A DNA stretch of 64,000 nt, taken from contig JBIOXD010000050.1 of assembly GCA_044869265.1 (NCBI GenBank), forward strand, positions 42,369-106,368, in the 5' to 3' direction. Below the pieces are notes generated by a model, which saw nothing but the letters and a program-made list of their open reading frames with translations, ran no database searches and had not been told where the DNA came from. Origin of the DNA: Gemmatimonadales bacterium. GTDB taxonomy: Bacteria > Gemmatimonadota > Gemmatimonadetes > Gemmatimonadales > GWC2-71-9. Position numbers and translations under genes: made by a program. Within the stretch, counting starts at the first letter, position 1. Every line of letters begins with the position of its first letter. Positions 15,367 to 63,669 of this stretch are shown here, one piece after another.

Positions 15367-16530
15367 ATGGCTAACCCCTTCGAAGGCCTCTTCGATTCCG
15401 GCGACGTGCTCGAGCGCGTCGGTATCGACCTCACGGCGCAGGCGCGTCGCGGCGACCTCGAGCCGGTGCGCTGCCGGGACGCCGAGATCGCGCGCGTCAT
15501 TGATATCCTGCTGCGGCAGGGAAAAAACAACGCCGCGTTGGTGGGGCGCGCCGGCGTCGGCAAGACCGCGGTGGTCGAGGGATTGGCGCAGCGGATCGCT
15601 TCGGGCAACGTCCCGCCGGCATTGAAGGACGCTCGCGTGCTGGGGCTGGACCACGTGTCGATGCTCGCGGGAACGTCGTTCCGTGGGCAGTACGAGGACC
15701 GCATCCGGCGGCTGGTGCAGGCACTGCAGGCCGATCGCAATCTCATCCTCTTTGTCGACGAGCTCCACAACCTCATCGGGCAGGGGACTGCGATGGGGGC
15801 GGCGATGGACGCCGCCAACATGCTGAAGCCCGCTCTCGTGCGCGGAGACATTCGCGTCATCGGCGCGACCACCGGCGAGGAATACAACAAGTGGGTCAAG
15901 TCCGATCCCGCACTCGAGCGTCGCTTTCAGCCCGTCACCATCGAGGAGCTGGACGCCATTCAGACCTGGGAGGTGCTGGTCGCGCGGAGACCACGCTTCG
16001 AGCGCCATCACGCCGTGGCGATCTCGGACGACGCGCTCAAAGCGGCGATTGTGTTGACTGACCGGTTCGTTCCGGAGCGCGCTCGCCCCGACAAAGCGAT
16101 CGACGTGCTGGACGAAGCCTGCGCACACGCCCAGGCCACGGCGCAGGTATCGCCGGAGCTCGACAAGCTGATTCGCGACCGCAAGAAGCTCGAAGCGATG
16201 ATTCGGCGCGGGGCGACAGAAGAAGAGACGCGTGCTCCCGACGAGCCTTTGCCCGATCTTGCAACGGTGTTGCAGCGGTTTGGGGAAGAGATCGAAGAGC
16301 TGTTGGGCGGGCGGAAGCGGTCGAGGGCGGACGAAGGCGGTCCTGAGGTTCCGTCCTCGCCCGCCTCCGACCGCCCTCGTCCGCCTCCGACCGCCCTCGA
16401 CGAGCAGCGCGCCGACCTCGACGGCCGCCTCCGCGCCGAGCTCGAACGCCAGGGCATTGTGGTTACCGGCAAGGAAATCGCTCGGGTGGTCGCCGCAGCG
16501 GTGGGGAAGGGCATCGAGTGGGCCGGCTGA
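15367..16530 (+). CDS. Clp/Hsp100 D1-only AAA+ ATPase (no N-domain, no D2)
   Basis: Starts just before D1 (DLTAQARRGDLEPVRCRDAEIARVIDILLRQGKNNAALVG). Walker A GRAGVGKTAVVEGLA, Walker B LILFVDELHNL, VIGATT, ERRFQPV. Ends with VTGKEIARVVAAAVGKGIEW, which resembles the D1/D2 junction motif of ClpA/B/C. Confidence 0.8.
   Translation: MANPFEGLFDSGDVLERVGIDLTAQARRGDLEPVRCRDAEIARVIDILLRQGKNNAALVGRAGVGKTAVVEGLAQRIASGNVPPALKDARVLGLDHVSMLAGTSFRGQYEDRIRRLVQALQADRNLILFVDELHNLIGQGTAMGAAMDAANMLKPALVRGDIRVIGATTGEEYNKWVKSDPALERRFQPVTIEELDAIQTWEVLVARRPRFERHHAVAISDDALKAAIVLTDRFVPERARPDKAIDVLDEACAHAQATAQVSPELDKLIRDRKKLEAMIRRGATEEETRAPDEPLPDLATVLQRFGEEIEELLGGRKRSRADEGGPEVPSSPASDRPRPPPTALDEQRADLDGRLRAELERQGIVVTGKEIARVVAAAVGKGIEWAG
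16322..16400. repeat. Decamer array: 2 x CGAGGGCGGN-type units, ~20-nt spacer, then 4 inverted units including a 20-nt tandem duplication. Lies inside a CDS.
   Basis: cgagggcgga cgaaggcggt ... ccgcctccga ccgccctcgt ccgcctccga ccgccctcga. Positions 16361-16380 and 16381-16400 are 19/20 identical. Confidence 0.9.
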
Positions 16531-17762
16531 TCCGTCTTGCATCGCTCAGCGGCATGCTCGTCGCGATGGGTGCCGCGGGCGGCTGTCGCGAGCGCGCTCA
16601 AGCGGTGCAGAGCGAGGCGGAATTGAAGGACATGGTGCGCCGCATGATGCCGCGCGTCGGTCAGGCGGCGGGCCTTCCCTTCAAGCGTGAACCGACCGTG
16701 TTGCGGCGCTCGCGAGCGCAGGTGCGCGACTACGTCATTCACAAGTTCGATGAAGATCTGCCTCCCGCCGAACTCGCGGGACTCGAATCGTCGCTTCGCT
16801 TGTTCGGCCTGATTCCGGATTCTCTGCAGCTGCGCTCGACGATGATCGATCTCCTGACCGAGCAGATTGCCGGCTACTACGATCCCGATTCGAGCGCGCT
16901 CTACATCCCGGCGGATATCGAGCCGTCTCAGCTGCGCATCGTCGTGTCGCACGAGCTGGTGCACGCGCTGCAGGATCAATACGTGAAGCTCGATTCCATC
17001 ATCACGCAGCGACGCCGCAACGATCGGCGCTCGGCGGCGCAGGCAATTCTCGAAGGGCAGGCAACCGTCGCGCAGATTCCCGTCCTCATGCCTGAGCAGA
17101 ACCCCGACACATTCCCCCCGGGGTGGTTTTGGAAGCAGCGCGAGGTGATGGCACAGCAGCAGGCGCGCATGCAGGAGTTTTCGCGTGCGCCGCTGTGGCT
17201 GCGGGAAGGGCTGGTTTTTCCCTATCTGGGTGGTGCGGACTTCATCGTGTGGTACCGGCGCAAATACTTCGATGTATCGATACTGGACCCACGCCGGATG
17301 CCCACGTCGACCGAGCAGGTTCTGCATCCCGACCGCTACGCCGCCAAGGACGCGCCGACGGACGTCATCTTCACCGGCGCGAGCGTCGACACGGTGCAGT
17401 ACGAAGACAATCTCGGCGCGTTCGAAACACGACTGCTCTTCCAGCAGCATTTGAACAATGAGGCCGAGGCCGAGCAGCTCTCCGAGGGGTGGGACGGCGA
17501 TCGGTATCAAGTGCTCGGCCCCAAGGCGGACGTGCTGGTGTGGTATAGCGTCTGGGATGACGGCGCTGCGGCGTCGCGATTCGCGCGCGGCCTCGAGCGC
17601 GCTTGGGCCAAACGCCGGTCAGGCGATCGGTCGGACGGACGGTCGGAAATAAAGCAGCTGACGATCGACGGGCGGCCCGTTGTACGACTCGTCGATGCGC
17701 CGGCGAGTTGGAAGGGATGGCGCGCGCTGCCGGCCGTTCGACTTAGTGCAGCAAGCGACTGA
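16518..17762 (+). CDS. Putative zinc metalloprotease lipoprotein (HExxH, gluzincin-like)
   Basis: The GTG at 16518 gives a lipoprotein-like signal (LVAMGAAGGC). VVSHELVHALQDQ HExxH motif with a downstream ILEGQAT. Overlaps the AAA+ gene by 13 nt. Family not recognised. Confidence 0.6.
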   Translation: MGRLIRLASLSGMLVAMGAAGGCRERAQAVQSEAELKDMVRRMMPRVGQAAGLPFKREPTVLRRSRAQVRDYVIHKFDEDLPPAELAGLESSLRLFGLIPDSLQLRSTMIDLLTEQIAGYYDPDSSALYIPADIEPSQLRIVVSHELVHALQDQYVKLDSIITQRRRNDRRSAAQAILEGQATVAQIPVLMPEQNPDTFPPGWFWKQREVMAQQQARMQEFSRAPLWLREGLVFPYLGGADFIVWYRRKYFDVSILDPRRMPTSTEQVLHPDRYAAKDAPTDVIFTGASVDTVQYEDNLGAFETRLLFQQHLNNEAEAEQLSEGWDGDRYQVLGPKADVLVWYSVWDDGAAASRFARGLERAWAKRRSGDRSDGRSEIKQLTIDGRPVVRLVDAPASWKGWRALPAVRLSAASD

Positions 17763-19123: not shown

Positions 19124-20476
19124 ATGTTTACGGCCCTTTCCGAGGATCTGACCGGCGTACTGAACCGGCTCAGGGGCCGCGGGGTGCTCTCGGAAGGCGA
19201 CGTCACCGACGCGCTGCGTGAGATCCGTCGCCACCTGCTCGAAGCCGACGTGAGCTTCGAGGTCACGCGCGGATTCGTCGACAGAGTTCGCGAGAAGGCG
19301 ACCGGCGCGCTCCAGGTCAAGGCCGTCAGCCCCGGCCAACAGATCACCAAGCTCGTGCATGACGAGCTCGCGCGTATGCTCGGCGCGACGGATGAGTCTT
19401 TGGCGCGCGGAGTGGGGGTCCAGAACGCTGCACCTCTGCAATTCGCGACTGTAGGCCCAACGGTAGTTCTGCTCGTGGGGTTGCAGGGATCGGGAAAAAC
19501 GACCACCGCGGCGAAGCTCGCGCGGCGGCTGAAGCTGGAACAGAAAGCACCTGCGCTGGTCGCGGCTGATATCTATCGGCCCGCGGCCGCGGAGCAGCTG
19601 CGGCAGCTCGGGCAGCAGATTGGGGTGCCGGTTCTGGGCGCCCGACCGGAGAATGTAGGCGCGCAGCATGCTGCGCCCGTACCAAGCCTGGTCAAGGACG
19701 CGCTGCGTGAAGCCGAGTCGGCGCGCGCACGCACAGTGATCGTCGACACCGCCGGCCGGCTGCAGATCGACGCTGAGATGATGGATGAGCTGCGCGCGGT
19801 GAGGGACGCGGTGAAGCCGCGCGAAATCCTGCTCGTCGCCGACGGCATGACGGGGCAGGACGCGGTCAAGATCGCCAAGGGGTTTCACGACGGTGTCGGA
19901 CTGACCGGCGTGATCCTGACGAAGCTCGACGGCGATACGCGTGGCGGCGCCGCGTTGTCCATTCACGGCGTGACGGCGGTGCCGATCAAGTACATCGGCG
20001 TCGGGGAAAAGACCGACGCGCTGGAGCCGTTCGATCCCGTTCGCATGGCGGGACGGATTCTGGGGCAGGGGGACGTCGTCGCGCTGGTGGAAAAGGCTGT
20101 TGCGAACGTCGATGCGGAAGCTGCCAAGCGCCTGGAACAGAAGGTCAAGTCCAAGAAGGGCATGGACCTTCAGGATTTTCTGGTGGCGCTGAAGCAGATG
20201 CAGAACATGGGACCGCTCAAGCAGGTGCTCGGACTCCTGCCGGGGATCAACGCGAAGGCGTTGCAGGGCGTTTCGATGGACGACAAGCGTCTCAAGCATG
20301 TCGAGGCCATCGTCCTCTCGATGACCCCTGCGGAACGGGCCGATCCGAGCATGCTGAACGGCAATCGCAAGCTGCGGATCGCCAAAGGATCGGGACGGAC
20401 AGTCCAGGACGTGAATCGGCTGCTGGAACAGTTCCAGCAGATGCGCAAGCTCAGCAAGTTCATGAAAAGGATGTAG
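19124..20476 (+). CDS. ffh: Signal recognition particle protein Ffh
   Basis: MFTALSEDLTGVLNRLRG, GLQGSGKTTT, DTAGR, TKLDGD and a Met-rich M-domain tail. Confidence 0.97.
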   Translation: MFTALSEDLTGVLNRLRGRGVLSEGDVTDALREIRRHLLEADVSFEVTRGFVDRVREKATGALQVKAVSPGQQITKLVHDELARMLGATDESLARGVGVQNAAPLQFATVGPTVVLLVGLQGSGKTTTAAKLARRLKLEQKAPALVAADIYRPAAAEQLRQLGQQIGVPVLGARPENVGAQHAAPVPSLVKDALREAESARARTVIVDTAGRLQIDAEMMDELRAVRDAVKPREILLVADGMTGQDAVKIAKGFHDGVGLTGVILTKLDGDTRGGAALSIHGVTAVPIKYIGVGEKTDALEPFDPVRMAGRILGQGDVVALVEKAVANVDAEAAKRLEQKVKSKKGMDLQDFLVALKQMQNMGPLKQVLGLLPGINAKALQGVSMDDKRLKHVEAIVLSMTPAERADPSMLNGNRKLRIAKGSGRTVQDVNRLLEQFQQMRKLSKFMKRM

Positions 20477-24436: not shown

Positions 24437-24441
24437 CTAAT

Positions 24442-24540
24442 CGAGGGCGGTCGAGGGCGGACGATGGCGGGCGAGGGTGTCAAGCAGCACATAGAAAGCT
24501 ACCGCCGTTGACCGCCTTCTACCGCCCTTGACCGCCCATT
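24442..24540. repeat. Two facing arrays of four 10-bp units (CGAGGGCGGN x4, ~20-bp centre, then ACCGCCNTTG-type x4)
   Basis: tcgagggcgg tcgagggcgg acgatggcgg gcgagggtgt ... accgccgttg accgccttct accgcccttg accgcccatt, in the polX / TonB-receptor divergent intergenic region. Confidence 0.9.
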
Positions 24541-27633: not shown

Positions 27634-27725
27634 GGCGACGCTACGATAAGGCGACGCTATAAAAGAGCGACGCTAGGAGAAGGCGAGTTCGTTCCTCCTA
27701 GCGTCGCTTTTTTCCTACCGTCGCC
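27634..27725. repeat. GGCGACGCTA-type units: three direct, then two inverted copies
   Basis: ggcgacgcta (27634), ggcgacgcta (27650), agcgacgcta (27666), tagcgtcgc (27699), taccgtcgcc (27716). Confidence 0.85.
27667..27713 (+). terminator. Rho-independent terminator (13-bp stem plus T6), probably bidirectional
   Basis: GCGACGCTAGGAG (27667-27679) pairs with CTCCTAGCGTCGC (27695-27707), followed by TTTTTT. On the opposite strand the hairpin is followed by CTCTTTTAT. It lies between two convergent genes. Confidence 0.8.
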
Positions 27726-28558
27726 TAGCTTACAGTTACCTGTTTCACCATCCCGTGCACAAAATGCGGTGCGCCGTCATTCGTGTCGGGCACGTAGCAG
27801 AGGAAGAGATAGTTGCCCGGGGTGAAGGTCAGCGTCACCCAGCCCACTTTGCCCTTATCGGGCCCGGCGAAGCCCCCGACGGGCACTGAGACCGGCTCGC
27901 CCTTCATTCCTCCGGACATCCAGCGCCGCCAGTCAGCAAGTGTCTTGCCCGGCGCCAGGCGTTCGATCGTGAGCTCATGGAGCTGCGGCCCCGTGTTCTC
28001 CACCCGGATCGTCCGCGTTCCCGCGGTGAGCGGGGTCGATTGTTCGAACGCGAAGTCGGAGAGGGTCACCGTGAGGTCGGCCTTGGGCTCGGCAGCGGCC
28101 GCGCGCGAGGGCGGAGCAATTACGACCAGTCGACGGAACATTCCCTTTTTCACGTGCTCCGTTCCGTCCGGGCTCGGAATGAAACACACAATTTCGTAGT
28201 TGCCCGGCTTCAGATTCGCCGTGATGATCGAGCTATCGCCGCCCAGCACGACACCGGGGCCGCCGGGAAAGGTCGGTTCGATCTTGAGGAACGCCTGCCA
28301 CCATTCCGCCTGGGACGGCCTCGGGGCCGCGGCAGCCTCCAACTCCTCGAATGTCTTCCCTGGCGCCCCGAAGATCACCGCCTGGTGCGGCTCGCGGCCG
28401 TGATTCACCATCCGAAACGTCGTGAGTCCCGCCACGATCGTGTCGGGGGCACCGAAGGCGAAGTCGGTTGCGGTTATCGTCACGACGGCTGGCGGCCTGG
28501 CTGGCTTGGGAGAACACGCGATAGAAAAGAGAGCTAATAGTGTGATTGCTCGGGACAA
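27725..28558 (-). CDS. Lipoprotein with two tandem cupredoxin-like domains (putative type-1 copper sites)
   Basis: Signal LLALFSIAC. Two internally similar halves, each ending GNYEIVCFIPSPDGTEHVKKGMF / GNYLFLCYVPDTNDGAPHFVHGMV, with an upstream His (NHGREPHQ / GPQLHEL). Confidence 0.6.
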   Translation of the reverse strand: MSRAITLLALFSIACSPKPARPPAVVTITATDFAFGAPDTIVAGLTTFRMVNHGREPHQAVIFGAPGKTFEELEAAAAPRPSQAEWWQAFLKIEPTFPGGPGVVLGGDSSIITANLKPGNYEIVCFIPSPDGTEHVKKGMFRRLVVIAPPSRAAAAEPKADLTVTLSDFAFEQSTPLTAGTRTIRVENTGPQLHELTIERLAPGKTLADWRRWMSGGMKGEPVSVPVGGFAGPDKGKVGWVTLTFTPGNYLFLCYVPDTNDGAPHFVHGMVKQVTVS

Positions 28559-28678
28559 GGCATCTCCTGGTAAGTAGAGGCGTTGATTGAACGGCGTTTA
28601 ATGAACGGCGTCGAAGGGAATACGTCAAAATCGAAGACGTCGCAAGAGACGTCGAGAAAAAGACGTGTTGACGACGTA

Positions 28679-29047
28679 TCAGCGGTCCGGAGGAGGATGG
28701 TGGTAGAGACGGGTGAGCATCTTGAGAGTGAGCACGGTACCGCTCTGCAGAGAACGAATTGTTGACCGTTGCTCCTCGGATGTGGGAGCGATGATTCGGA
28801 GCAGAGCAAGCGTTTCCTGGGCTGATCCCCGCGCGTGAAGCATGAAACGTCGAAAGTCAGGAACCGTGCCCCGTCCACAGCCCTCCGCGATGTTCAGACC
28901 GATTGACGTCGAGGCGCGGACGAGCTGATCAGCCCGTGCCAGTGCGCCCGGTCCGCGGAGGCTATGAGCCAGGACGGCGCAGCCCTTCGCGACATGCTCA
29001 GCGACCTGTACAACTCGAAGCCTGGCGGGGTTGGCGCGCAGCACCAT
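28679..29047 (-). CDS. Four-helix-bundle protein (23S rRNA intervening-sequence protein / Avd-like family)
   Basis: QLVRASTSIGLNIAEGCGRGTVPDFRRFMLHARGSAQETLALL matches the conserved core of the TIGR02436 / PF05635-type family. About 120 aa. Confidence 0.8.
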   Translation of the reverse strand: MVLRANPARLRVVQVAEHVAKGCAVLAHSLRGPGALARADQLVRASTSIGLNIAEGCGRGTVPDFRRFMLHARGSAQETLALLRIIAPTSEEQRSTIRSLQSGTVLTLKMLTRLYHHPPPDR

Positions 29048-29090: not shown

Positions 29091-29198
29091 TACGCCTTTA
29101 CGGTGTTTTTCTACGCCTCCTGCGACGCCTTTTGCTTTGACGCCTTTCCTTTGACGCCGTCTTTCGACGGTTTAAGTTTGACGAGTTTGTAGTTGACA
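29091..29198. repeat. Array of about 8 (T)TTGACGCC-like units spaced 12-21 bp, immediately upstream of tRNA-Lys
   Basis: tacgcc 29091, tacgcc 29112, gacgcc 29124, ttgacgcc 29137, ttgacgcc 29151, tcgacgg 29164, ttgacga 29178, ttgacag 29193. Confidence 0.8.
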
Positions 29199-39066: not shown

Positions 39067-41886
39067 TCAGGATCCACCTGCCCGCGTCAAATCCCGGAGG
39101 TAGCGGCCCGTGATCGACTCGGTGGCGGCAACCTCCTCGGGTGTGCCCGTGGCGACCACGCGGCCGCCCTGGTCTCCTGCGCCGGGGCCGAGATCGATGA
39201 TCCAGTCCGCGCGCTTGATCACGTCGAGGTTGTGTTCGATCACGACGACGGTATGGCCCGCGTCGACCAGCCGATCGAGTACGCGACAGAGAACCCGGAC
39301 GTCGTCGAGATGCAGCCCCGTTGTCGGCTCATCGAGAAGGTAGAGCTTGCGCTTGCCCGCCGAGCGCCTGGTGCTCCCCGCGTGCGCCAGCTCGCGCGCG
39401 ATCTTCAGTCGTTGTGCTTCGCCGCCCGACAAAGTCGTCGCGGACTGCCCCAAACGCAGGTATCCGAGTCCCACCTGTTGCAAATACCAGAGACACCGCG
39501 CGAGACGAGGGTGCCGATGAAGTTTTTGGATTGCCTGATCCACCGTCCACTCGAGCGCCTGCGCGATGTTGACGCCTTGCATCTTGACGTCCAACACCTC
39601 GCGCTTGAAGCGGCTGCCGCCACAGACCTCGCACGGGACGAAGACGTTGGCCAGGAACACCATCTCGATGATCACGTGACCCGCGCCTTCACACGCTTCG
39701 CACCGCCCGCCTGCCACGTTGAAGGAAAACGTGCTCGGGGCGTACCCACGCGCCCGCGCCAGCGCTTCGTTCGCGAATAACGCCCGCAGCTCGTCGAACG
39801 CCTTGACGTACGTCACCGGATTCGAGCGCGGGGTGCGGCCAATGGGCGCCTGGTCGATGCACACCACGTCTTCCAGGGTCTCCCACCCCTTCACGTTGCT
39901 GATCTCACCGACCGGCTCCCCGAGGTGTCGCTTGGCCGTGTGCTCGCCTCTGAGCCGGGATTCGAGCTGGCGATACAGAACGTCGTGGACGAGCGTTGAT
40001 TTTCCCGAGCCCGATACGCCGGTCACAGCGGTGAAGGTGCCGAGGGGAATGCGCACGTCCACGCCGGCGAGGTTGTGGAGCCGCGCTCCTTTGATGTCGA
40101 GCCACCGTACCGCCGGCCGGCGTGCCGACGGCACGCCGATCGACTTCTCGCCCGAGATGTATTGACCGGTGAGCGTACCGGCCTCGCGCACCCCAGCCGC
40201 GGGTCCTTGATAGACGAGCTGGCCACCGGCGGCCCCGCTCGCGGGGCCAAGCTCTACCATCCAATCGGCAGCGCGCATGGCGGCAGGATCGTGCTCCACC
40301 ACGACCACGGTATTGCCACCGACCGACAATCTCCGCAGAAGCCCCAGCAATCGGTCGACGTCGGCGGGGTGCAAACCGATCGACGGCTCATCGAGCACGT
40401 AGAGGGTATCGACCAGATGAGAGCCGAGCGCATTGGACAGCGCGATGCGCTGCGCCTCCCCGCCGGAGAGAGTGCGCGTCTGTCGGTCCAGCGTGAGGTA
40501 GCCCAGTCCGACATCGTTCACAAACCCGACGCGTGCCCGCAGCTCGCCGAGAATGTGGTCAGCCACGGTCTGCTGGAACGCCGGCAACTTCAGCCGATCC
40601 AGCCAGACAGCGAGGTCGGCGGCCGTGAGCGCCGCCACTTCAGCAATCGTCTTCCCAGCGACTCGGACTGCCAGTGACTCAGGCTTGAGACGGGAACCGC
40701 CGCATCCAGGGCACGTCTTGGCGAGTTGGTACCGCCGCAGGAAAACGCGGATGTACTGCTTGTACCGCTTCTCTTCAAGCCGCTCCAAGAAAGGGAAAAT
40801 ACCGAGATAGCGGCCGCCCTTGTTGTGGAGCAGGAAGTGTCGCTCGCGTGGCGGGAGGTCACGCCACGGCGCGTCGAACGCGATGCCTCTGGCACGGGCC
40901 GTCTCCCGCAACAGTCTGCGCCGCCCCTCATAGCGAGGCATCGTCCATGGATCGAGTGCGCCGCGGGCAAGCGAGCGGTCCGGATGGGGGACAATGAGCG
41001 ACTCGTCGTATTCAAGGACAGCGCCAAACCCATTGCACGTGCCGCACGCGCCCCGCGGATTGTTGAAGGAAAAGAGCGTAGGCGTGAGCAATGGTGCCGC
41101 AGCGCCGCAAGCTGAGCAAGCGGGATGCTCGGAAAAGCGCCGGCGGTCGCCATTGTTCAGGGCGAGAGCAACACCTTCACCTTCGCTGAAGGCTGTCGCT
41201 ATCGCGTCGGCGAGGCGGTTCCGGTTCTCCGGAGTGGGCGCAATCCGATCTACGAGCACCAGCACATCCGTTCCGGCTCGGACGCTAGTCTCCGCCCCGT
41301 CCTCGTCCAGACGGACGACCGTCCCATCTACCTGGGCCCTGACAAAGCCGGCGGCACGGAGCTGCGCGGCGATCTCGACATCGGGGCGCTGGGCAGACTG
41401 CGGCAGGGGGAATGCGACCACCACATTCTCGGTTTCCCGTTTCCCGTTTCCCGATAGCACGTCGTCCACGGCCTCCTGCACCGTGTCGCGTTTCACCTGG
41501 CACCCGCATTGGAGGCATGTCTGTGTCCCGGCACGGGCCCACAATAGGCGCAGGAAATCGGCGATTTCCGTGGCCGTGCCGACGGTCGACCGGCTGGACG
41601 TCGTGGGGTTCTTTTGCTCGATCGCGACAGCCGGGGACAAGCCCTCCATCGAGTCGACCAATGGCTTGGGCATCCGTTCGAGGAACTGCTTGGCATAGGT
41701 CGATAACGATTCGATGTAGCGGCGCTGACCTTCCGCGTAGAGCGTATCGAAGGCAAGCGAACTCTTGCCCGACCCGGATGGGCCGGTAACGACCGAGAGC
41801 GCCCGGCGGGGGAACTCGACGGTGATGCCTTTCAGATTATGCTGGCGTACGTTGCGAAGCACGACGCGTTGCGGGGGCGCACGCAT
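39067..41886 (-). CDS. uvrA: Excinuclease ABC subunit A
   Basis: [37 protein letters not shown], zinc modules (CxxC pairs), LSGGEAQR signature twice, second Walker [11 protein letters not shown]. 939 aa. Confidence 0.92.
41432..41453. repeat. Heptanucleotide repeat (GTTTCCC)x3 on the + strand, read as GGGAAAC on the coding strand; inside uvrA
   Basis: gtttccc gtttccc gtttccc g. Encodes SGNGKRE in UvrA. Confidence 0.9.
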
Positions 41887-46593: not shown

Positions 46594-46611
46594 GAGGCTG
46601 GGGCCTAGGGC

Positions 46612-48170
<1,559 letters not shown>

Positions 48171-53837: not shown

Positions 53838-54484
53838 GGCGCGCTTCGTCCCTTGCCGAGAATCCGCGCTCCAAACCCCAGCGTCACGCGATGTACCAGC
53901 TGCGCGGATGTGAAGCCGTCGGCATGCAGCGCGGGAGTCGAAAACCGATGCAAGTCATAGCGCAGCGACACCCCGAAGTCGTGGGCGGGCCCTCCCAGCT
54001 TGGTCGGGGACCAGTAGAGACCGGCCGTGCCGACGGCCCAGAGCCCGGAGCCGCCTCGAAACAATCCGGTTTCATCAGCGGGCAGATACTTGATGCCACC
54101 GATCCCCACGCGCGCCGCCAGACTGGGACTGACTTCACGACGCGCCCCGACCGTGAAGGCGATCACCGTCACAGAGTTGAATTTCGCCGCCTCACCGCTC
54201 TCGTGGCGCTGTAATGCCGCCCACGACACGTCGAGAACGGCTTCGGGTGTCCAGGGGCCGTTCGTGCGCTCGCCGATGCTCAGCGCGAGCACCGGCCCGA
54301 TAGCGGGCTTCGCATCGACGGGCTCGACGATCACGTCGTGCACGAGAGCCGTCGTATAGCGAGCGCCGACGGTTGCGTGAACGGAAGCCTGGGCGGCCGG
54401 ACGGCCCGACGGCCAGACGGCCAGGGCGGTCAGCAGAATGAGCGTGTGTGCGGCCGTCCGGCCGTCCGACCGTTCGACCGTCAA
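53834..54484 (-). CDS. Small outer-membrane beta-barrel protein (OmpW/porin-like, family not resolved)
   Basis: TTG start overlapping the znuB-like stop (TTGA). Signal LILLTALAVWPSGRPAAQA. Alternating beta-strand pattern. Confidence 0.5.
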   Translation of the reverse strand: MTVERSDGRTAAHTLILLTALAVWPSGRPAAQASVHATVGARYTTALVHDVIVEPVDAKPAIGPVLALSIGERTNGPWTPEAVLDVSWAALQRHESGEAAKFNSVTVIAFTVGARREVSPSLAARVGIGGIKYLPADETGLFRGGSGLWAVGTAGLYWSPTKLGGPAHDFGVSLRYDLHRFSTPALHADGFTSAQLVHRVTLGFGARILGKGRSAP

Positions 54485-57676: not shown

Positions 57677-58018
57677 TCAGGAAAGGGCGAGGGGTGGGGC
57701 TCGGGGGGCTCGGGCGGGTGTCAGCCGGACGATGGGTGGGACCGATACAACCGGTTGCGGATGCGTGAGGTGCCCGCCGGCAACGGGCGTTTCGATAATG
57801 ACGACGTGCTGGGGAACCACCCGCGTGGTCATGTAGTTGCACAGCGCGCAGCGCAGCTCGTCATGGAGGACCGGACAGCGCCCAGTGTGATTCGCTTCAA
57901 CACCGGCTTGCGCCACCACCACGTCGCGCGCGTGCGCGAGCGTGACGGCACCGCCGCCAAGCACCTGAAGAGCCAGGAGGATCGCCAGCAGCACGCGCGT
58001 CAGCATGGTCTCCTTCAT
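57677..58018 (-). CDS. Small secreted Cys/His-motif protein (paralog of 50531..50881)
   Basis: Signal MLTRVLLAILLALQVLGGGAVTLAHA. Motif VE-x6-C-x3-H-x4-C-A-x-C-x-Y-M-T and a C-terminal ARAPRAPP tail. The ATG overlaps the nfo stop (ATGA). Confidence 0.45.
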   Translation of the reverse strand: MKETMLTRVLLAILLALQVLGGGAVTLAHARDVVVAQAGVEANHTGRCPVLHDELRCALCNYMTTRVVPQHVVIIETPVAGGHLTHPQPVVSVPPIVRLTPARAPRAPPLALS

Positions 58019-58881
58019 ACGCCAACCACTGCGCGGCTGTTGCCACGGGCGTAGGCGCGCAGCCGCCGCAACATGCGGCGGTCGTGCCGCAGCGGGTCAT
58101 CCCGCTTGGGCGTCTCGATAATCTTAACAACATCCTGCAGCGCGGCGTCCCGCATGATGCGCCGAAAGGGTTCCGGCCCGATCCTGCCGTCGCCAATCCA
58201 TTCATGGCGATCGACGCGCGATCCGGCAGCCGCGCGCGAGTCGTTGAGATGCAAGCACTTAAGTAGATCGAACCCGATCACACGATCGAATTCTTCCCAG
58301 ATCGCCTCCACACGCGTGAGATCGTACCCCACAGCGTGCAAGTGCGCCGTGTCGAGGCAAAACCCGACCCGCGTCCGAATCTCGTCAGGCAACGCGTTGC
58401 GGAGATCGCGGAGCTGCTCGAACGTCGCACCGAGCGCGGTCCCCGATCCGGCCGTGCCTTCAATCCACACCTGCAGATCGCCGGGCATGGAGGCCAAACA
58501 CACGGCGTATGCGCCGGCGTTGCGCTCCAATCCGGCATCCCGATCGTCCATGTAGTTGCCGGGATGCGATACCACGGCGCGCAACCCGAGCGCGCGCGAT
58601 CGCTCCAGCTCGTTCTTGAAGCTCCGCATGCTGCGCGCGCGCAGCACGGGATCGGGTGACGCCAGATTGATCAAGTAGCTATCGTGTGCGATAACCGCTT
58701 CGAGGCGATGACGGGTCACCTCGGTGCGGAAGCGCTCGACCATGGTCGTCTCGAGCGCCGGCTCGCGCCACTGATTGGGCGTCTTGGTAAACAGCTGGAT
58801 GGCGGTCGCGCGCAGCGCCCGGCCGCGCTGGGGTGCGGTCGCCACACCGCCTTGACTCGACACGTGCGCACCGAGGATCAC
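58015..58881 (-). CDS. nfo: Deoxyribonuclease IV (endonuclease IV)
   Basis: ILGAHVSSQGG, AIQLFTKTPNQW, HDSYLINLAS, VSHPGN, CLDTAHL, LHLNDS motifs. The GTG at 58881 overlaps the pcm stop (GTGA). The remainder of the 472-aa ORF is a frame artefact. Confidence 0.9.
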   Translation of the reverse strand: MILGAHVSSQGGVATAPQRGRALRATAIQLFTKTPNQWREPALETTMVERFRTEVTRHRLEAVIAHDSYLINLASPDPVLRARSMRSFKNELERSRALGLRAVVSHPGNYMDDRDAGLERNAGAYAVCLASMPGDLQVWIEGTAGSGTALGATFEQLRDLRNALPDEIRTRVGFCLDTAHLHAVGYDLTRVEAIWEEFDRVIGFDLLKCLHLNDSRAAAGSRVDRHEWIGDGRIGPEPFRRIMRDAALQDVVKIIETPKRDDPLRHDRRMLRRLRAYARGNSRAVVGV

Positions 58882-59561
58882 AACTCTTCCGTAAACGCCA
58901 GACGGGAGATCAGGGGAACGAACCGCACACCGCCCGCGCGGCGGTGTTTGATGGGGCCGCCGTTCATCGGCCGCTCCAGAACCACCAACTCTTGTGATGC
59001 TAGGTTGCCCACCGGGATCACCAGACGCCCTCCAGGGGCTAGTTGACCCAGGAGGGGCTCGGGAATGCGCGGCGCGGCGGCCGCGACGATGATGCCGTCG
59101 AAGGGCGCTGCGTCGGGCCATCCCGGCGCGCCGTCGCCGAGCTGCGTTTCGATATTGTCGAGACCGAGCCTGCGAAACCGCTCTTCCGCTTCGACGAGCA
59201 AATCGGGAAGCCGTTCGATCGTGAAGATCCTGCCGGCAGATACGAGCCGTGCCAGCACGGCCGTCTGATATCCCGAGCCTGTGCCGATTTCGAGAATGCG
59301 ATCCGCGCGTCGCGGTTGCAGCTCCTGGATCATGAGCGCGACGACGAAGGGCTGTGAAATTGTTTGCCCGCTGCCAATGGGCAGCGGCGCGTCGTTGTAG
59401 GCGTCGGCGGCGAGATGCGGCGGCAGAAACCACTCACGCGGCACCCAGCGCATCGCCGCAAGCAGCCGTTCATTGCGAATGCCGCGGCTGGCGAGCTGGC
59501 GCACGACCATGCGCGTGCGTGCGGCGAGTGTGTCCGCGGCTGGATGTGCTTGCCCGGGCAT
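58878..59561 (-). CDS. pcm: Protein-L-isoaspartate O-methyltransferase
   Basis: AMRWVPREWF, GQTISQPFVVALM, ILEIGTGSGYQTAVLA, DGIIVAAAAP. Start set to MPGQAHP (59561). Confidence 0.9.
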   Translation of the reverse strand: MPGQAHPAADTLAARTRMVVRQLASRGIRNERLLAAMRWVPREWFLPPHLAADAYNDAPLPIGSGQTISQPFVVALMIQELQPRRADRILEIGTGSGYQTAVLARLVSAGRIFTIERLPDLLVEAEERFRRLGLDNIETQLGDGAPGWPDAAPFDGIIVAAAAPRIPEPLLGQLAPGGRLVIPVGNLASQELVVLERPMNGGPIKHRRAGGVRFVPLISRLAFTEEL

Positions 59562-59580
59562 GGGATGAACTATAGCCGCG

Positions 59581-59728
59581 TGCGCCGTGCGCCGTGAGCC
59601 GTACGCCGTTGCCATTCCGGCGCACTGCGCACGGCTCACACCGCACGTTTTAGGGCGGCGCACTGCGGACGGCGCACGGCGCGCGTTTTAGTCCGGCGCA
59701 CTGCGCACGGCTCACGGCGCACGTTTAG
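59581..59728. repeat. ~37-bp tandem repeat x3 (built from GCGCAC-type heptads, each ending CGTTTTAG) preceded by one inverted partial copy
   Basis: Units at 59617-59653, 59654-59691 and 59692-59728 (ccggcgcactgcgcacggctcacaccgcacgttttag and variants). An inverted copy gcgtgcgccgtgcgccgtgagccgtacgcc lies at about 59579-59608. Confidence 0.9.
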
Positions 59729-61577: not shown

Positions 61578-62467
61578 GGCAACAACGGTATCTCGACCCG
61601 CACCGGCAGACCGGCCTTCAGGCGTCCTTCATTGTCATCAATCGCGACCTTGATTCCAAAGACGAGATCCGCCCGCTCGCGCTCGGTTAGGGCCGCCCGA
61701 GGCGTGAATTCGGCGCGGGGCGCGATCTCCGTCACGTGTCCGCTGAACGCCTGCGAATAGCCATCGACCTGGATCTTCACAGCCAAACCGACCTTGAGCC
61801 GCGCCACGAACCGTTCCCCGACGTAGGCGCGGATCCAGGGCGCGCGCACCAGGCCGATCGAAACGACCGGTACGCCGACGGCGATCATCTCCCCCCGCTC
61901 GGCGAAACGCGTCAGGACGATCCCGTCCGCCGGCGCGATCAAGACCAATTGATCGCGGATCGCCTCGGTAACCTGGACGGCCGCACGGGCCGCCTGCGAT
62001 TCGCGGACCGCGGCCCGGACCGATTGAAGCCGCGCGGCGGCCGCCGACGCGGAAGTCTGCGCGCGGTCCAGATCCTGAGGGGAATTAATGCCCTGCGCCC
62101 GCAGCACGCGGGCGCGCGCGAGATCGTTGGCGGCGCGTTCACTGTCGGCTACAGCGGCACGGATCTCTGCGGTGCGGGCCGACGCCGCTTCCGCGAGGGC
62201 GCGGCGTTGTTCGATCATCGCCTCGAGCCCCGGCTGTTCGAGCACCGCCACGGTATCACCGGCGCGCACCGAGTCGCCCTCATCCTTGAGCAGGCGCTCC
62301 AAACGCCCCGACGCCAGCGGGCTGAGGCGGACTTCGCGGATTTCGACCGTGCCGGCAACGGTGAGGGTGTTGCCCGAGCTACCGCATGCCGCCAGGAGCG
62401 CCGCGGTCGCGAGCGCTACCGTGGCGTCGAGGGCCGAGTGGCGCGGGGACGCGGTGCGCGTAGCCAA
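61574..62467 (-). CDS. HlyD-family membrane fusion (periplasmic adaptor) lipoprotein
   Basis: Lipobox LLAAC. Barrel-sandwich and coiled-coil pattern (VAGTVEIREVRLSP..., LIAPADGIV). TTG start at 62467. Confidence 0.8.
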   Translation of the reverse strand: MATRTASPRHSALDATVALATAALLAACGSSGNTLTVAGTVEIREVRLSPLASGRLERLLKDEGDSVRAGDTVAVLEQPGLEAMIEQRRALAEAASARTAEIRAAVADSERAANDLARARVLRAQGINSPQDLDRAQTSASAAAARLQSVRAAVRESQAARAAVQVTEAIRDQLVLIAPADGIVLTRFAERGEMIAVGVPVVSIGLVRAPWIRAYVGERFVARLKVGLAVKIQVDGYSQAFSGHVTEIAPRAEFTPRAALTERERADLVFGIKVAIDDNEGRLKAGLPVRVEIPLLP

Positions 62468-63669
62468 TTGCCCGGATCCAGCGCGATGCCGCCCTGGCCC
62501 CGGATCTCGAAGTGCAGGTGCGGACCCTCGTCGCTCGATTCACCACCCACGTGGCCGATTACCTGTCCACGGATCACACGTTCTCCCTGCCTGACCGTCG
62601 CATCGTTGAGATAGGCGTACACCGTGTAATAGCCGCCGCCGTGGTCGATGAGCACCGACGTGAGATACAGTCCGAGGCTTCCCGCGAGACTGACCGTCCC
62701 GGGCGCGACGGCGCGAACCGCGGTTCCCACCGGCGCCTTGATGCCGATCCCATGGCGCGGAATGCGCGTGTTGTTGGGCCCCGTCGTCGTCCCAAACGGG
62801 TAGATGATCTGCCCCTCGACCGGCCAATCGAGGGCGCCGAGATCCGCCGTGGTAATCGATCCCGTCGCTGCGGTAGTGCCGCGCGACTCGGCTTCGCGCC
62901 GCGCCCGTTCCAGCGCTTCGATCCGGTCGTTGAGCGTGCGCTCGTCCCGCTCGAGTCGTGTGAGCCGCTGCTGCGCCTGACGGGCGCTGCGTCGTGTTTC
63001 GCGAAGGCTGCTCTCGCGCGCCTGCTCGAGCGAGACGTAGCGCCCGAGCTCGTCGGTCCGCTCGCGCCGGCGGCGGGCCAGCGTTTCGCGCGAGTCGACC
63101 AACAGCTGTCGCTGGCGTGCCACGCGGTCGCGCAGCTTTTCAACATCGTTGGCAAGCAGGCGGTCCTGGCGACTCACCAGACTGAGATACTTATACCGCG
63201 AGAGGAGGTCCCCGAAGCTCTCGGCCGCGAAGTAGACCTGCCAGCTGTAGAGCGGCCCGCGCTTGTAAATCTCGACGAAGCGCCGTTCCAGTACGGCGCG
63301 CTTTTCGAGCAGTGCATCTTGCGCGATCAGCAGATCGACCGTGATCTGATCGATCTGCCCGCCAAGCCCCGTGATCTGGCGGTCCAACTCGTTGACGATG
63401 CGATTCGTGCTTTGCCTCTGACGCTCGATATTCGAGATCTCGTCAGTGAGCGAGTGTGCCTGAGTGCGCAACCGGGCCAGCTCCTGCTCTACTTGCGACC
63501 GCTCGCGCCGGATGTCCTCGAGTCGGCGCTGGTTGTCCTGCATTTGCTGGTGGTAGGTCGGGCGCTGGGCGTGCAACGGGACACGGGAAACGGGAAACGT
63601 GAAAAGCACGAGACAAGTGACAAGCAGCCCCGTGTCCCGTTTCCCGTTTCCCGCTTCCCGTGACTTCAT
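62416..63669 (-). CDS. envC: EnvC-like coiled-coil M23 peptidase-domain protein
   Basis: Long coiled coil, then an M23/LytM domain (HGIGIKAPVGTAVRAVAPGTV...IDHGGGYYTVYAYL...GPHLHFEI). ATGA overlap with ftsX. Confidence 0.85.
   Translation of the reverse strand: MKSREAGNGKRDTGLLVTCLVLFTFPVSRVPLHAQRPTYHQQMQDNQRRLEDIRRERSQVEQELARLRTQAHSLTDEISNIERQRQSTNRIVNELDRQITGLGGQIDQITVDLLIAQDALLEKRAVLERRFVEIYKRGPLYSWQVYFAAESFGDLLSRYKYLSLVSRQDRLLANDVEKLRDRVARQRQLLVDSRETLARRRRERTDELGRYVSLEQARESSLRETRRSARQAQQRLTRLERDERTLNDRIEALERARREAESRGTTAATGSITTADLGALDWPVEGQIIYPFGTTTGPNNTRIPRHGIGIKAPVGTAVRAVAPGTVSLAGSLGLYLTSVLIDHGGGYYTVYAYLNDATVRQGERVIRGQVIGHVGGESSDEGPHLHFEIRGQGGIALDPGNWLRAPRPRATRPSTPR
63578..63660. repeat. 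Inverted heptad arrays: GGGACAC GGGAAAC GGGAAAC, 32-nt spacer, GTGTCCC GTTTCCC GTTTCCC GCTTCCC
   Basis: Direct reading of 63578-63599 and 63632-63660. The arms can pair over 21 nt with 2 mismatches. They lie in codons 4-31 of envC. Confidence 0.9.

What the first reader, a model, noticed from the sequence alone, without database searches (positions are those of the whole stretch)
16322..63660. Recurrent architecture: direct array of short tandem units, spacer, inverted array of the same units, at six or more loci
Six loci share one construction with different unit sequences.
- 16322-16400: 10-mers, inside a CDS.
- 24442-24540: 10-mers, intergenic.
- 27634-27725: about 10-mers, between convergent genes.
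- 28593-28678 facing 29091-29198: GGCGTC/GACGTC versus GACGCC units, flanking a whole small gene.
- 59579-59728: GCGCAC-type heptads in ~37-bp units.
- 63578-63660: GGGAAAC heptads, inside a CDS.
Two unit families recur at distant loci. The decamer pair at 16322-16340 and 24452-24470 is 18/19 identical. The core CGGGAAACGGGAAACGGGA is shared by uvrA (41432-41453) and envC. I do not recognise this as a described element class such as REP/BIME, ERIC, RPE or cyanobacterial STRR, although it has features of each: heptad tandem units like STRR, and in-frame residence in genes like RPE.
Basis: partly seen in the sequence, partly recalled or inferred. Interest (0 to 1): 0.62.

Follow-up and report, generated by a model that had tools for sequence, protein, structure and literature searches.

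The report
Hairpins built from short tandem repeats
This soil bacterium (order Gemmatimonadales) and its relatives carry many long DNA hairpins whose two arms are each about four copies of a 7-10-base unit, always G-rich arm first, lying between genes and also in frame inside genes; they are real and lineage-wide, only one paper (on Xanthomonas) describes the like, and how they form is unknown.

Summary
All six loci have the stated construction, and a seventh lies at 54394-54482. Long hairpins: 6 in the window against 0.57 in shuffles; five of the six are built from tandem units.

The window is core chromosome of a Gemmatimonadales soil bacterium. About 115 related loci show the same sites carrying:
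- no array;
- a plain one-unit hairpin;
- a one-arm array;
- a full paired array.

Units differ between genomes at one site. They are often shared between different sites of one genome.

Two rules hold. The G-rich arm is always 5' (37 of 37). Each arm has about four units whatever the period.

The arrays fold at -42 to -74 kcal/mol. The one in the EnvC signal-peptide codons shows compensatory changes. No Rfam family matches, and the 52 ORFs scanned hold no transposase.

Best reading: self-complementary short-tandem-repeat hairpins that grow and turn over by slippage, arm-to-arm template switching and some copying between loci. They persist at transcript ends, at promoter spacers and in tolerant coding segments.

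The closest precedent is the convergent GGGAATC heptamer pairs of Xanthomonas (Rehm 2015). This is a new variant of a known kind. Mechanism, polarity and the four-unit rule remain unexplained.

The parts
16305..16401 (.). S1: paired array of 10-mers (GAGGGCGGWC). 5' arm 16305-16342, spacer, 3' arm 16351-16401. It is translated in frame as the linker ...GGRKRSRADEGGPEVPSSPASDRPRPPPTALDE... of the AAA/Clp-type ATPase 15367-16530(+).
   Evidence: (I2: 36 nt, 86% complementary). Fold -73.8 kcal/mol, z -6.2. All 23 orthologues keep the ORF; most carry a paired array here, with unit families that differ between genomes.
24441..24537 (.). S2: paired array of 10-mers of the same unit family as S1. It lies between the PolX start (24436, minus strand) and the TonB-receptor promoter. 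The outermost unit of the 3' arm supplies TTGACC 17 nt upstream of the conserved TACGCT.
   Evidence: Fold -62.7 kcal/mol, z -7.3. Absent in the nearest relatives L003 and L004; different units in L016, L020, L033, L036, L030 and L031. Identical in two other assemblies.
27634..27729 (.). S3: three direct GGCGACGCTA cores at 16-17-nt spacing, a loop, then two inverted cores. TTTTTT follows the inner stem. It lies between the stop codons of convergent genes (27630 and 27725).
   Evidence: Folds -50.6 and -50.3 kcal/mol on the two strands, z -5.2. Orthologous sites show a one-unit plain hairpin (L018, L035), one-arm forms (L010) and full 8- or 10-mer arrays (L008, L009, L014, L016, L022, L033).
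28579..28678 (.). S4, left arm: GGCGTY/GACGTC cores about every 14 nt. On the minus strand these read TTGACGCC-like, pointing at the gene that starts at 28563.
   Evidence: (I1).
28679..29047 (-). Small gene enclosed by the S4 arms: 23S-rRNA-intervening-sequence / four-helix-bundle protein (PF05635).
   Evidence: E 3.5e-17. Among relatives the cassette is present or absent between the neighbouring gene and tRNA-Lys. L036 keeps the arms without the gene.
29091..29198 (.). S4, right arm: TTGACGCC-like cores, inverted relative to the left arm, ending 2 nt before tRNA-Lys (29200-29272).
   Evidence: (I1: 55 nt, 76% complementary, 446 nt apart).
54394..54482 (.). S7 (new): paired array of 8-mers (GACGGCCN), about four per arm. 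It lies in codons 1-30 (signal peptide) of ORF 53834-54484(-), whose TTG start overlaps the stop of the upstream ABC-3 permease gene.
   Evidence: Fold -64.2 kcal/mol, z -5.4. Relatives have 8-mer paired arrays, with other units, about 3.6-5 kb downstream of the anchor gene; their orthology to S7 was inferred from position and was not anchored by a protein match.
59579..59726 (.). S5: one arm of GTGCGCC-type heptads (59579-59609) faces three tandem 38-bp copies of the complementary arm, each ending GTTTTAG. It lies between the ABC-2 gene stop (59725) and the -10-like TATAGT (59574-59569, minus strand) of the next gene.
   Evidence: Folds -50.4 kcal/mol (minus strand) and -41.9 (plus strand). 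A 1+1 version of the same hairpin is in L105 and L106; relatives with another upstream gene have none.
63575..63661 (.). S6: paired array of GGGAAAC heptads, about four per arm. It lies in codons 3-31 of EnvC (62416-63669, minus strand). The 5' arm encodes the charged n-region, the loop the hydrophobic core, and the 3' arm FPVSRVP.
   Evidence: Fold -57.8 kcal/mol, z -6.6. Orthologues have no array, a direct-only array, or paired arrays with other heptads. Consensus hairpin of 29 pairs, 12 with changes on both sides.
41432..41453 (-). Solo direct array (GGGAAAC)3 in frame in uvrA, encoding ...[10 protein letters not shown].... No inverted partner.
7882..7914 (+). Solo direct array (GGGGCCT)x4.7, directly after the stop codon of the nucleoside-transporter gene.
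46601..46633 (+). Solo direct array of the same GGGGCCT/AGGGCCT heptad, between the pckA and HD-domain genes.

Best explanation
These are self-complementary short-tandem-repeat hairpins, that is, paired inverted arrays of simple repeats. They are an endogenous repeat class of the lineage, not genes and not autonomous mobile elements. A unit of 7, 8 or 10 nt (14-16 nt in looser cases) stands about four times on one arm. Its complement stands about four times on the other arm, with the G-rich arm 5'.

Proposed life cycle:
1. A short ordinary inverted repeat, for example a terminator stem, has one stem-length unit duplicated.
2. Replication slippage then changes unit number within an arm.
3. Hairpin-templated synthesis (quasi-palindrome template switching) copies changes to the other arm. 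The arms therefore stay complementary while the unit sequence drifts.
4. Arrays occasionally seed or overwrite arrays at other loci of the same genome, by ectopic copying.

They survive where a 30-40-bp stem is useful or harmless:
- transcript ends in tightly packed gene rows (S3, S5);
- spacers next to promoters (S2, S4);
- coding segments that tolerate almost any sequence: signal peptides (S6, S7), an inter-domain linker (S1), and surface loops of UvrA and Ffh.

Shown: the anatomy, the excess over chance, the predicted stability, presence/absence and the intermediate forms at orthologous sites, unit turnover with arm complementarity kept, sharing of unit families within a genome, the polarity, and about four units per arm.

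Inferred: slippage, template switching and ectopic copying as the processes, and a terminator or insulator role at S3 and S5.
For: - Graded series at one orthologous site (S3). L018 has GGGACGGTA-gatgt-TTACCGTCCC-TTTT, a one-unit terminator-like hairpin. L035 has one GGCGACGCTAGG unit per arm. L010 has four units on the 5' arm and one on the 3' arm. L016, L022 and L033 have 3-6 units per arm. The window's S5 is 1 arm against 3; L105 and L106 have 1 against 1.
- One-arm arrays exist at S1 (L013), S2 (L015, L023, L026) and S6 (L084, L085, L117, L140, L150).
- The arms stay 84-100% complementary although units differ between orthologues. L107 has TGGGGAG units with 22/22 pairing. At S6, 12 of 29 pairs show changes on both sides.
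- Loops are unrelated between sites. At S6 the loop appears to be the pre-existing hydrophobic core of the signal peptide: array-free orthologues read MKALLLLLIAAPVVAQ.
- No target-site duplication appears at the S2 junction when it is compared with the empty L003 and L004.
- Within-genome sharing. In 5 of 6 genomes with two arrays among S1-S3 (window, L009, L016, L019, L030), both arrays use one unit family, while each site carries 3-6 families across genomes. Mean 6-mer Jaccard is 0.167 within a genome against 0.054 across genomes. The window's S1 and S2 share 24 of 25 nt.
- No transposase, integrase or reverse transcriptase among the 52 ORFs scanned.
- No Rfam family.
- Quasi-palindrome template switching and slippage are established mutational processes in E. 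coli (work of Ripley and of Lovett; my own knowledge, not checked here).
Against: - Nothing in this model predicts the strict polarity (37 of 37 G-first).
- Nothing in it predicts the narrow copy number (median 4.0 units, IQR 3.6-4.2, for periods 7, 8 and 10). Free slippage should give a broad length distribution.
- The same unit family occurs at non-orthologous sites in different genomes: GACGGCCG at S1, S3 and S7; GGGAAAC in uvrA, envC and ffh. An identical 28-mer, (GGGAAAC)3 followed by GTGGTGC, occurs in ffh of L008 and in envC of L103. That fits a dispersing element or a biased generator better than purely local growth.
- The window's S2 array is absent from its closest relatives. This looks like a recent gain of a ready-made array.
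- Unit variants are not mirrored position by position between the arms, for example in L116 and the window at S6. Arm-to-arm copying is therefore imperfect or rare.
- The test of G:U against A:C mismatches gave opposite biases at S1 and at S6/S7. It gives no clear sign of selection on the sense RNA.
Confidence: 0.5

Rival explanations
1. They are non-autonomous mobile elements, like MITEs, REPINs or RPEs, whose ends are arrays of short units. An enzyme encoded elsewhere in the genome copies them into new sites, including in frame into genes.
For: - Presence/absence at S2, S4, S5 and S6, patchy on the PolX tree.
- The window's S2 array is absent in relatives with 94% identical PolX, yet matches S1 of the same genome at 24 of 25 nt.
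- A limited vocabulary of units recurs at unrelated sites and genes.
- The S4 arms enclose a whole gene next to a tRNA gene.
- The Ffh loop that holds (GGGAAAC)3 in some relatives holds a GTAG-type REP-like palindrome in others and in the window. REPs can lie within coding regions and many are associated with RAYT transposases (PMC3733652).
Against: - No target-site duplication.
- Loops are unrelated between copies and include host sequence (the hydrophobic core of a signal peptide).
- One-unit and one-arm intermediates occur at the same sites.
- There are at least six unit families within 64 kb.
- No transposase among the 52 ORFs scanned. The rest of the genome was not seen.
Confidence: 0.2
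2. They are G-quadruplex / hairpin switch elements. Four G-runs on the first-made arm can fold into a quadruplex before the C-rich arm appears. The pair would then act as a kinetic or ion-dependent regulator of transcription, RNA stability or translation.
For: - About four units per arm.
- The G-rich arm is always made first, on either strand.
- Every family except S5 has a GG or GGG run in each unit.
- A quadruplex is predicted for the S6 5' arm on its own (-12.8 kcal/mol) and for (GGGGACG)4 (-32.5 kcal/mol).
- (GGGAATC)n of Xanthomonas forms G4 in vitro, and most arrays there have four units (PMC4692102).
Against: - No quadruplex is predicted for the 8- and 10-mer families, and none for S5, which has no GG run.
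- With both arms present the hairpin wins by 40 kcal/mol or more.
- The contexts are too mixed (coding sequence, terminator, promoter spacer) for a single regulatory role.
Confidence: 0.12
3. They are arrays of binding sites (iterons) for DNA-binding proteins, as in plasmid centromeres (ParR-parC, omega-protein heptads) or phased regulator sites. The two inverted arrays would hold two protein filaments.
For: - Direct arrays facing inverted arrays are the typical layout of centromere-like sites (my own knowledge).
- The 10-bp period at S1 and S2 matches one helical turn.
- Units are shared between sites of one genome.
- Some units resemble TTGAC, the -35 promoter element.
Against: - At least six unrelated units and three periods occur within 64 kb.
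- Units change between close relatives at the same site.
- Three loci lie inside coding sequence.
- Periods of 7 and 8 bp are not in helical phase.
Confidence: 0.05
4. They are scars of double-strand-break repair. Both 3' ends were extended by iterative, telomerase-like synthesis of a G-rich unit and then joined, giving the layout of a head-to-head telomere fusion.
For: This is the only model considered that predicts the G-first polarity on both strands together with a non-homologous spacer.
Against: - The spacer often holds pre-existing functional sequence, or a whole gene.
- Arrays sit at the same sites across a family-level clade.
- One-unit plain hairpins occupy the same sites.
- No reverse transcriptase was seen.
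Confidence: 0.03

Closest known systems
Convergent pairs of tandem GGGAATC heptamers in Xanthomonas campestris and X. axonopodis (Rehm et al. 2015, PLoS One, PMC4692102)
   Same: - Tandem short G-rich units, mostly four per array.
- 70-75 sites per genome where one array on the plus strand faces one on the minus strand in convergent orientation, i.e. G-rich arm first.
- Mostly at the same gene neighbourhoods in related species, but with length and sequence variation.
- Not linked to IS elements.
- Function unknown.
   Different: - Xanthomonas has one dominant heptamer per genome and about 90% of its arrays are intergenic.
- Here there are at least six unit families, with periods of 7, 8, 10 and 14-16, within 64 kb.
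- Three of seven paired loci here are translated.
- Here units turn over between genomes and are shared between sites of one genome.
- The paper stressed G-quadruplexes. Most units here are not predicted to form one.
REP / BIME / REPIN elements and their RAYT transposases, including GTAG- and CGTC-tagged palindromes (PMC3116915, PMC3733652)
   Same: - Dispersed short elements that form hairpins.
- Head-to-head dimers form larger hairpins.
- Some are intragenic and in frame.
- Proposed roles in termination and mRNA stability.
   Different: - A REP is itself a conserved palindrome of 20-40 nt. The units here are not palindromic and are not conserved between loci.
- No GTAG-tagged consensus and no RAYT gene were seen.
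- A true REP-like palindrome does occur in the window, in ffh, and looks quite different.
Rickettsia palindromic elements (RPE)
   Same: Palindromic DNA that sits in frame inside protein-coding genes, including essential ones, and is translated (my own knowledge; see also PMC3733652).
   Different: - RPEs are families of about 100-150 bp with a conserved consensus.
- They are not built of tandem units.
- They are confined to Rickettsia.
Cyanobacterial STRR heptamers, and TAACTGA direct repeats of Beggiatoaceae (PMC4679880)
   Same: Abundant tandem heptanucleotide arrays of unknown origin, with 2-6 or more copies, mostly near gene ends.
   Different: - Those are almost all direct arrays: 169 direct sets against one indirect set in the Beggiatoa genome.
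- They have one or a few units per genome.
- Inverted pairing is the defining feature here.
Intrinsic (Rho-independent) terminators
   Same: - S3 is a GC-rich stem followed by T6, between convergent genes.
- The one-unit forms at the same site in L018 and L010 look like ordinary terminators.
   Different: - The stems are 3-4 times longer than needed and are periodic.
- S1, S6 and S7 lie inside coding sequence with no T-tract.
- The simple terminator scan did not flag any array.
Quasi-palindrome template-switch mutagenesis and replication slippage (processes, not elements)
   Same: They provide the two operations needed: changing the unit number, and copying one arm from the other.
   Different: They are known as point-mutation hot spots in E. 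coli. They are not known to build and maintain a genome-wide class of periodic hairpins. They predict neither the polarity nor the four-unit rule.

Membership tests
Xanthomonas-type convergent SSR pairs (Rehm 2015) | Two tandem arrays of one short unit close together, one on each strand, in convergent (G-rich first) orientation | tested here: met
   Seven loci in the window. 37 of 37 strictly periodic hairpins in the Gemmatimonadota data are G-first.
Xanthomonas-type convergent SSR pairs (Rehm 2015) | Arrays mostly about four units long | tested here: met
   Median 4.0 units per arm, IQR 3.6-4.2, over 90 arms.
Xanthomonas-type convergent SSR pairs (Rehm 2015) | One dominant heptamer (GGGAATC) across the genome | tested here: not met
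   At least six unit families, with periods 7, 8, 10 and 14-16, in 64 kb.
Xanthomonas-type convergent SSR pairs (Rehm 2015) | About 90% intergenic | tested here: not met
   S1, S6 and S7 (three of seven) are translated in frame. Orthologues keep the ORFs.
REP / REPIN | Each repeat is itself a conserved imperfect palindrome of 20-40 nt (often GTAG-tagged) present in many near-identical copies | tested here: not met
   The units are 7-10 nt, are not palindromic, and differ between loci.
REP / REPIN | An associated RAYT (IS200/IS605-like Y1 transposase) gene in the genome | not testable with these tools
   None among the 52 ORFs scanned in the window. The rest of the genome is not available.
MITE | Target-site duplication flanking the terminal inverted repeats | tested here: not met
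   Comparison by eye of the filled S2 site (window) with the empty L003 and L004 shows replacement of about 28 nt and no duplication.
MITE | Copies share internal sequence as well as ends | tested here: not met
   The S1 and S2 loops are unrelated, although the arms match at 24 of 25 nt. Loops at S2 differ among L016, L020, L033 and L036.
RPE | In-frame residence in protein-coding genes | tested here: met
   S1, S6, S7 and the uvrA and ffh arrays.
RPE | A conserved consensus of about 100-150 bp | tested here: not met
   No consensus beyond the unit.
Intrinsic terminator | A GC-rich stem-loop directly followed by a T-tract, downstream of a gene | tested here: inconclusive
   By eye S3 qualifies (T6 after the inner stem). 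At S5 the 3'-arm copies end in GTTTTAG, but on the strand opposite to the flanking genes. The consensus scan flags no array. S1, S6 and S7 have no T-tract.
Iteron / centromere-like binding-site arrays | One unit sequence recognised by a cognate protein and conserved among relatives | tested here: not met
   Units change between close relatives at every site. Protein binding itself cannot be tested here.
G-quadruplex motif | Four runs of at least three G within one arm | tested here: inconclusive
   Met by the S6-type heptads (G4 predicted). Partly met by GAGGGCGGTC and GGGACGGTAA (one GGG per unit, no G4 predicted). Not met by GACGGCCN or GTGCGCC.
Any Rfam RNA family | A match at the gathering threshold | tested here: not met
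   Only the two tRNAs match in the window.

The most novel reading that the evidence does not exclude
The arrays are the product of a dedicated, polar, length-limited copying system that has not been described. A trans-acting enzyme would recognise the periodic hairpin, set about four units per arm, always lay down the G-rich arm 5', and copy arrays between loci, even in frame into essential genes (envC, ffh, uvrA). Candidates are a structure-specific nuclease or transposase, or a templated polymerase. That would make them a new class of self-propagating bacterial DNA, shared by Gemmatimonadota, some Chloroflexota and Xanthomonas.
Probability: 0.15. Interest if true: 0.8.

Novelty: new variant of a known kind. 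Interest (0 to 1): 0.58.

Why it matters
These hairpins account for nearly all long hairpins in this lineage (five of six in the window). They lie at the ends of many genes, where classical hairpin-plus-T-tract terminators are scarce. They may therefore be a main way these poorly studied soil bacteria mark transcript ends and separate tightly packed genes.

They also write protein sequence. The linker of a Clp-type ATPase and the signal peptides of EnvC and another exported protein are dictated by whichever unit family occupies the site. A DNA-level repeat process is thus driving protein evolution.

The strict G-first polarity and the four-unit arm length are shared with Xanthomonas. They point to a rule of repeat formation or selection that current models of slippage and palindrome maintenance do not explain.

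In practice, such arrays can mislead gene-start prediction, signal-peptide prediction and assembly.

Tried and rejected
- **Chance or composition.** Rejected by shuffles.
- **Assembly artefact.** Rejected. S2 is identical in two other assemblies. Arrays occur at orthologous sites in dozens of independent MAGs and metagenome contigs and keep ORFs intact.
- **Known RNA family.** None.
- **Exact 6-mer cluster detector.** Too strict: it found only 2-8 loci. I replaced it with TRF pairs and an inverted-repeat-plus-periodicity detector.
- **Sense-strand RNA selection from G:U against A:C mismatches.** The biases are opposite at S1 (A:C in the sense strand) and at S6/S7 (G:U 23 against A:C 8). They are probably set by coding constraints. 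Uninformative.
- **Polarity inherited from ordinary terminators.** Canonical terminators are too few to tell: 19 hits, mostly one orthologous site, and not G-first.
- **More four-helix-bundle genes flanked by arrays.** Only the S4 orthologues are present in the data.
- **Period fixed per site.** True for S6 (7) and S7 (8). False for S1 and S3, where 8- and 10-mer families replace one another.
- **Literature.** No paper on such repeats in Gemmatimonadetes. Searches for 'inverted tandem repeats' and for STRR hairpins gave nothing relevant. Elhai 2008 on very small mobile repeats is not held.
- **Simple promoter and terminator scans.** No array was flagged.

Full report
**What is in the window**

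The repeat tools confirm it.
- The inverted-repeat finder ranks S4, S1, S5, S2 and S6 among its eight longest pairs. It reports several pairings shifted by one unit, as expected when both arms are periodic.
- Tandem Repeats Finder reports both arms of S1, S2, S5 and S6 with periods of 10, 10, 7 and 7.

Two details need adjusting.
- S3 is a 10-nt core (GGCGACGCTA) recurring every 16-17 nt.
- S4 has GRCGTC cores about every 14 nt.

The 18/19 match between S1 and S2 is right, and it extends to 24 of 25 nt. The heptad core shared by uvrA and envC is right.

I found a seventh locus of the same build at 54394-54482, made of GACGGCCN 8-mers. There are also two solo arrays of one heptad (GGGGCCT) at 7882 and 46601.

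**More than chance**

- A detector that pairs TRF arrays whose sequences are reverse complements finds 5 pairs in the window and none in 60 dinucleotide shuffles.
- A second detector looks for hairpins with arms of at least 20 nt, at least 78% complementary. It finds 6 in the window against 0.57 per shuffle, and no periodic hairpin in any shuffle. Five of the six are built from tandem units.
- All arrays fold as single long hairpins of -42 to -74 kcal/mol, with z-scores of -2.5 to -7.3.
- No Rfam family matches them.

**Organism and context**

PolX (22709-24436) is 83-94% identical to proteins of about 35 Gemmatimonadales MAGs. The window is ordinary core chromosome: ppk, ffh, trmD, rnhB, polX, uvrA, pckA, a znu-like operon, ftsX-envC and two TonB-dependent receptors. 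None of the 52 ORFs scanned hits a transposase, integrase or reverse-transcriptase family.

| Site | Context |
|---|---|
| S1 | Linker of a Clp-type AAA ATPase, about 120 nt before the next gene |
| S2 | Between the divergent PolX and TonB-receptor genes |
| S3 | Between convergent stop codons |
| S4 | Encloses a four-helix-bundle (23S rRNA IVS protein) gene next to tRNA-Lys |
| S5 | Between a stop codon and a TATAGT box 7 nt upstream of the next ATG |
| S6 | Signal-peptide codons of EnvC; the start overlaps the upstream stop (ATGA) |
| S7 | Signal-peptide codons of ORF 53834-54484; the start overlaps the upstream stop (TTGA) |

Sources for S6 and S7.

**Comparative evidence**

I fetched about 35 genome loci around PolX and 80 metagenome loci around the gene next to S5. 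Each site shows a range of states.

- **S2.** Many relatives have a compact spacer with no array. Others carry GGGACGGTAA arrays (L016, L020, L033, L036), GACCGCC-type arrays (window, L023, L026, L030) or GGGGACG-type arrays (L031). Some have single-unit relics. On a PolX tree these states are patchy, and the window's nearest relatives have none.
- **S3.** There is a graded series: a plain one-unit hairpin with a T-tract (L018), four units against one (L010), and full arrays of 8- or 10-mers.
- **S1.** All 23 orthologues keep the ORF. Most have a paired array in the same linker, with five or six different unit families. The amino-acid sequence of the linker follows the unit.
- **S6.** Some orthologues have a short signal peptide and no array (MKALLLLLIAAPVVAQ). 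Some have a direct-only GTGGTGC array. Twelve have paired heptad arrays with at least five different units. The loop encodes the hydrophobic core. An alignment of eleven of them gives a consensus hairpin of 29 pairs, 12 of which show changes on both sides.
- **S7.** Relatives carry 8-mer paired arrays, with four unit families, 3.6-5 kb downstream of the anchor gene. I took these as S7 orthologues from their position; I did not anchor them with a protein match.
- **S4.** The arms-plus-gene cassette is present or absent at one site. L036 keeps the arms without the gene.
- **S5.** L105 and L106 carry the same hairpin with one copy of each arm. Relatives with another upstream gene have no array.

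The same architecture appears in unrelated control loci from Anaerolineae: four heptad hairpins in 22 kb of L076, and one in L075.

**Rules that emerged**

1. *Polarity.* All 37 strictly periodic hairpins in the Gemmatimonadota data have the G-rich arm 5'. This property is the same on both strands. Non-periodic hairpins in other phyla are G-first in 12 of 33 cases (Fisher p = 9e-10). The 37 are not independent. A fair count is at least seven sites and ten unit families. S5 has no G/C skew.
2. *Length.* Paired arms have a median of 4.0 units (IQR 3.6-4.2) whatever the period. Solo arrays pile up at the detection floor.
3. *Unit families.* At one site the unit differs between genomes. Within one genome, different sites often share a family: 5 of 6 genomes with two arrays among S1-S3.
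4. *Recurrence.* The same family recurs at non-orthologous sites and genes. GACGGCCG occurs at S1, S3 and S7. GGGAAAC occurs in uvrA, envC and ffh, including an identical 28-mer in ffh of L008 and envC of L103.

**Most likely explanation**

The graded series at S3 and S5, the one-arm forms, the unrelated loops, the host sequence in loops and the lack of target-site duplications point one way. The arrays grow in place from ordinary short inverted repeats. They grow by duplication of a stem-length unit and by slippage.

The arms stay 84-100% complementary while the unit changes. L107 has a private unit and 22/22 pairing. Point-by-point compensatory mutation could hardly achieve this. It calls for copying of one arm from the other. 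Template switching at quasi-palindromes is the established process of this kind (my own knowledge).

Sharing of families between sites of one genome, and the apparently recent gain of S2 in the window with S1's units, require some copying between loci.

The consequences I infer are these.
- Termination or insulation at S3 and S5, where the one-unit ancestors look like terminators and classical terminators are otherwise scarce.
- Reshaping of promoter spacers at S2 and S4, where the outer unit of S2 provides TTGACC 17 nt upstream of a conserved TACGCT.
- Translated filler in tolerant protein segments.

I give this account a confidence of 0.5. The processes are inferred, not observed.

**What it does not explain**

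Neither the strict polarity nor the four-unit length follows from slippage and template switching. The limited unit vocabulary across unrelated genes fits a dispersing element or a biased generator better.
- The mobile-element rival (0.2) gains from the Ffh hot spot. One surface loop holds (GGGAAAC)3 in six relatives and a GTAG-type REP-like palindrome in the window, L009 and L016.
- The quadruplex/hairpin-switch rival (0.12) would account for four units and for the G-arm being made first. But a quadruplex is predicted only for the S6-type heptads.
- Binding-site arrays (0.05) and break-repair scars (0.03) fit poorly.
- One idea of mine is untested: C-first hairpins might expose a C-rich, unpaired RNA stretch to Rho, and so be selected against.

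**Comparison with what is known**

The nearest description is of Xanthomonas. Of about 186 GGGAATC arrays per genome, mostly four units long, 70-75 sites per genome are convergent inverted pairs. They vary between species at the same gene neighbourhoods and have no known function (PMC4692102).

This case shares the pairing, the polarity and the four units. It differs in four ways:
- many unit families and periods in one genome;
- a large translated fraction;
- unit turnover between genomes;
- sharing of units between sites of one genome.

It is not REP/REPIN, MITE, RPE or STRR by their defining features (see the membership table). I rate it a new variant of a known kind.

**Limits**

- Only 64 kb of this genome and about 1.3 Mb of related fragments were seen.
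- Orthologous sites inflate the counts.
- Gene starts and promoters are inferred from sequence alone.
- There is no expression or population data.
- The detectors miss loose arrays such as S3 and S4.

Noticed in passing
window 19656-19683 (inside ffh, 19124-20476 +): An in-frame GTAG-type REP-like palindrome, GTAGGCGCGCAGCATGCTGCGCCCGTAC, encodes ...VGAQHAAPV... in a loop of Ffh. Its core GGCGCAGCATGCTGCGCC occurs at 9 places in 6 relatives, including the same ffh position in L009 and L016. L003, L004, L008, L011, L014 and L034 carry a GGGAAAC heptad array there instead. This loop is a hot spot for small repeats in an essential gene.
   Followed up: partly
window 59559-59574 (minus strand): TATAGT lies 7 nt upstream of an ATG (59561-59559). 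The arrangement is conserved in the roughly 25 related loci inspected and looks like a promoter for a leaderless mRNA. The ORF listed as 58015-59433 therefore probably starts at 59561. A similar TAnnnT box lies 5-7 nt before the PolX ATG in array-free relatives.
   Followed up: partly
window 28579-29198; L006, L016, L017, L019, L024, L035 (empty); L036 (arms only); L011 (gene internally deleted): The cassette of a four-helix-bundle (23S rRNA IVS protein, PF05635) gene plus flanking arrays is present or absent at one site next to tRNA-Lys. A transcript across it could form a 55-nt long-range stem around the ORF, as in rRNA intervening sequences.
   Followed up: partly
window 5417-5426 and 5530-5539: Homopolymer runs C10 and G10, about 100 nt apart, lie inside the ORF 4781-6457 around the start of its adenosine-deaminase domain. 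They encode KPPPR and QGGGI. Such runs are prone to frameshift.
   Followed up: no
window 44399-44455: An in-frame 15-nt tandem repeat (3.8 copies, 92% matches) encodes a repeated five-residue motif in the proline-rich tail of the FHA-domain protein 43141-44571.
   Followed up: no
window 29379-29400 and orthologous positions in 14 relatives: One conserved classical terminator (ACGACCGCG-loop-CGCGGTCGT-TTCTGT) lies downstream of tRNA-Lys. Otherwise stem-plus-T-tract terminators are very scarce in 1.37 Mb of this clade: 19 hits, 14 of them at this one orthologous site.
   Followed up: partly
L076 3100-3185, 6724-6775, 8394-8456, 9623-9681; L075 6969-7029 (Anaerolineae MAGs): Hairpins built of tandem heptads (GCGCAGA, GCGTGAT, GCAAGTG, CGTATTC) occur at high density in control loci from another phylum, mostly G-first. 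The architecture is not confined to Gemmatimonadota.
   Followed up: partly
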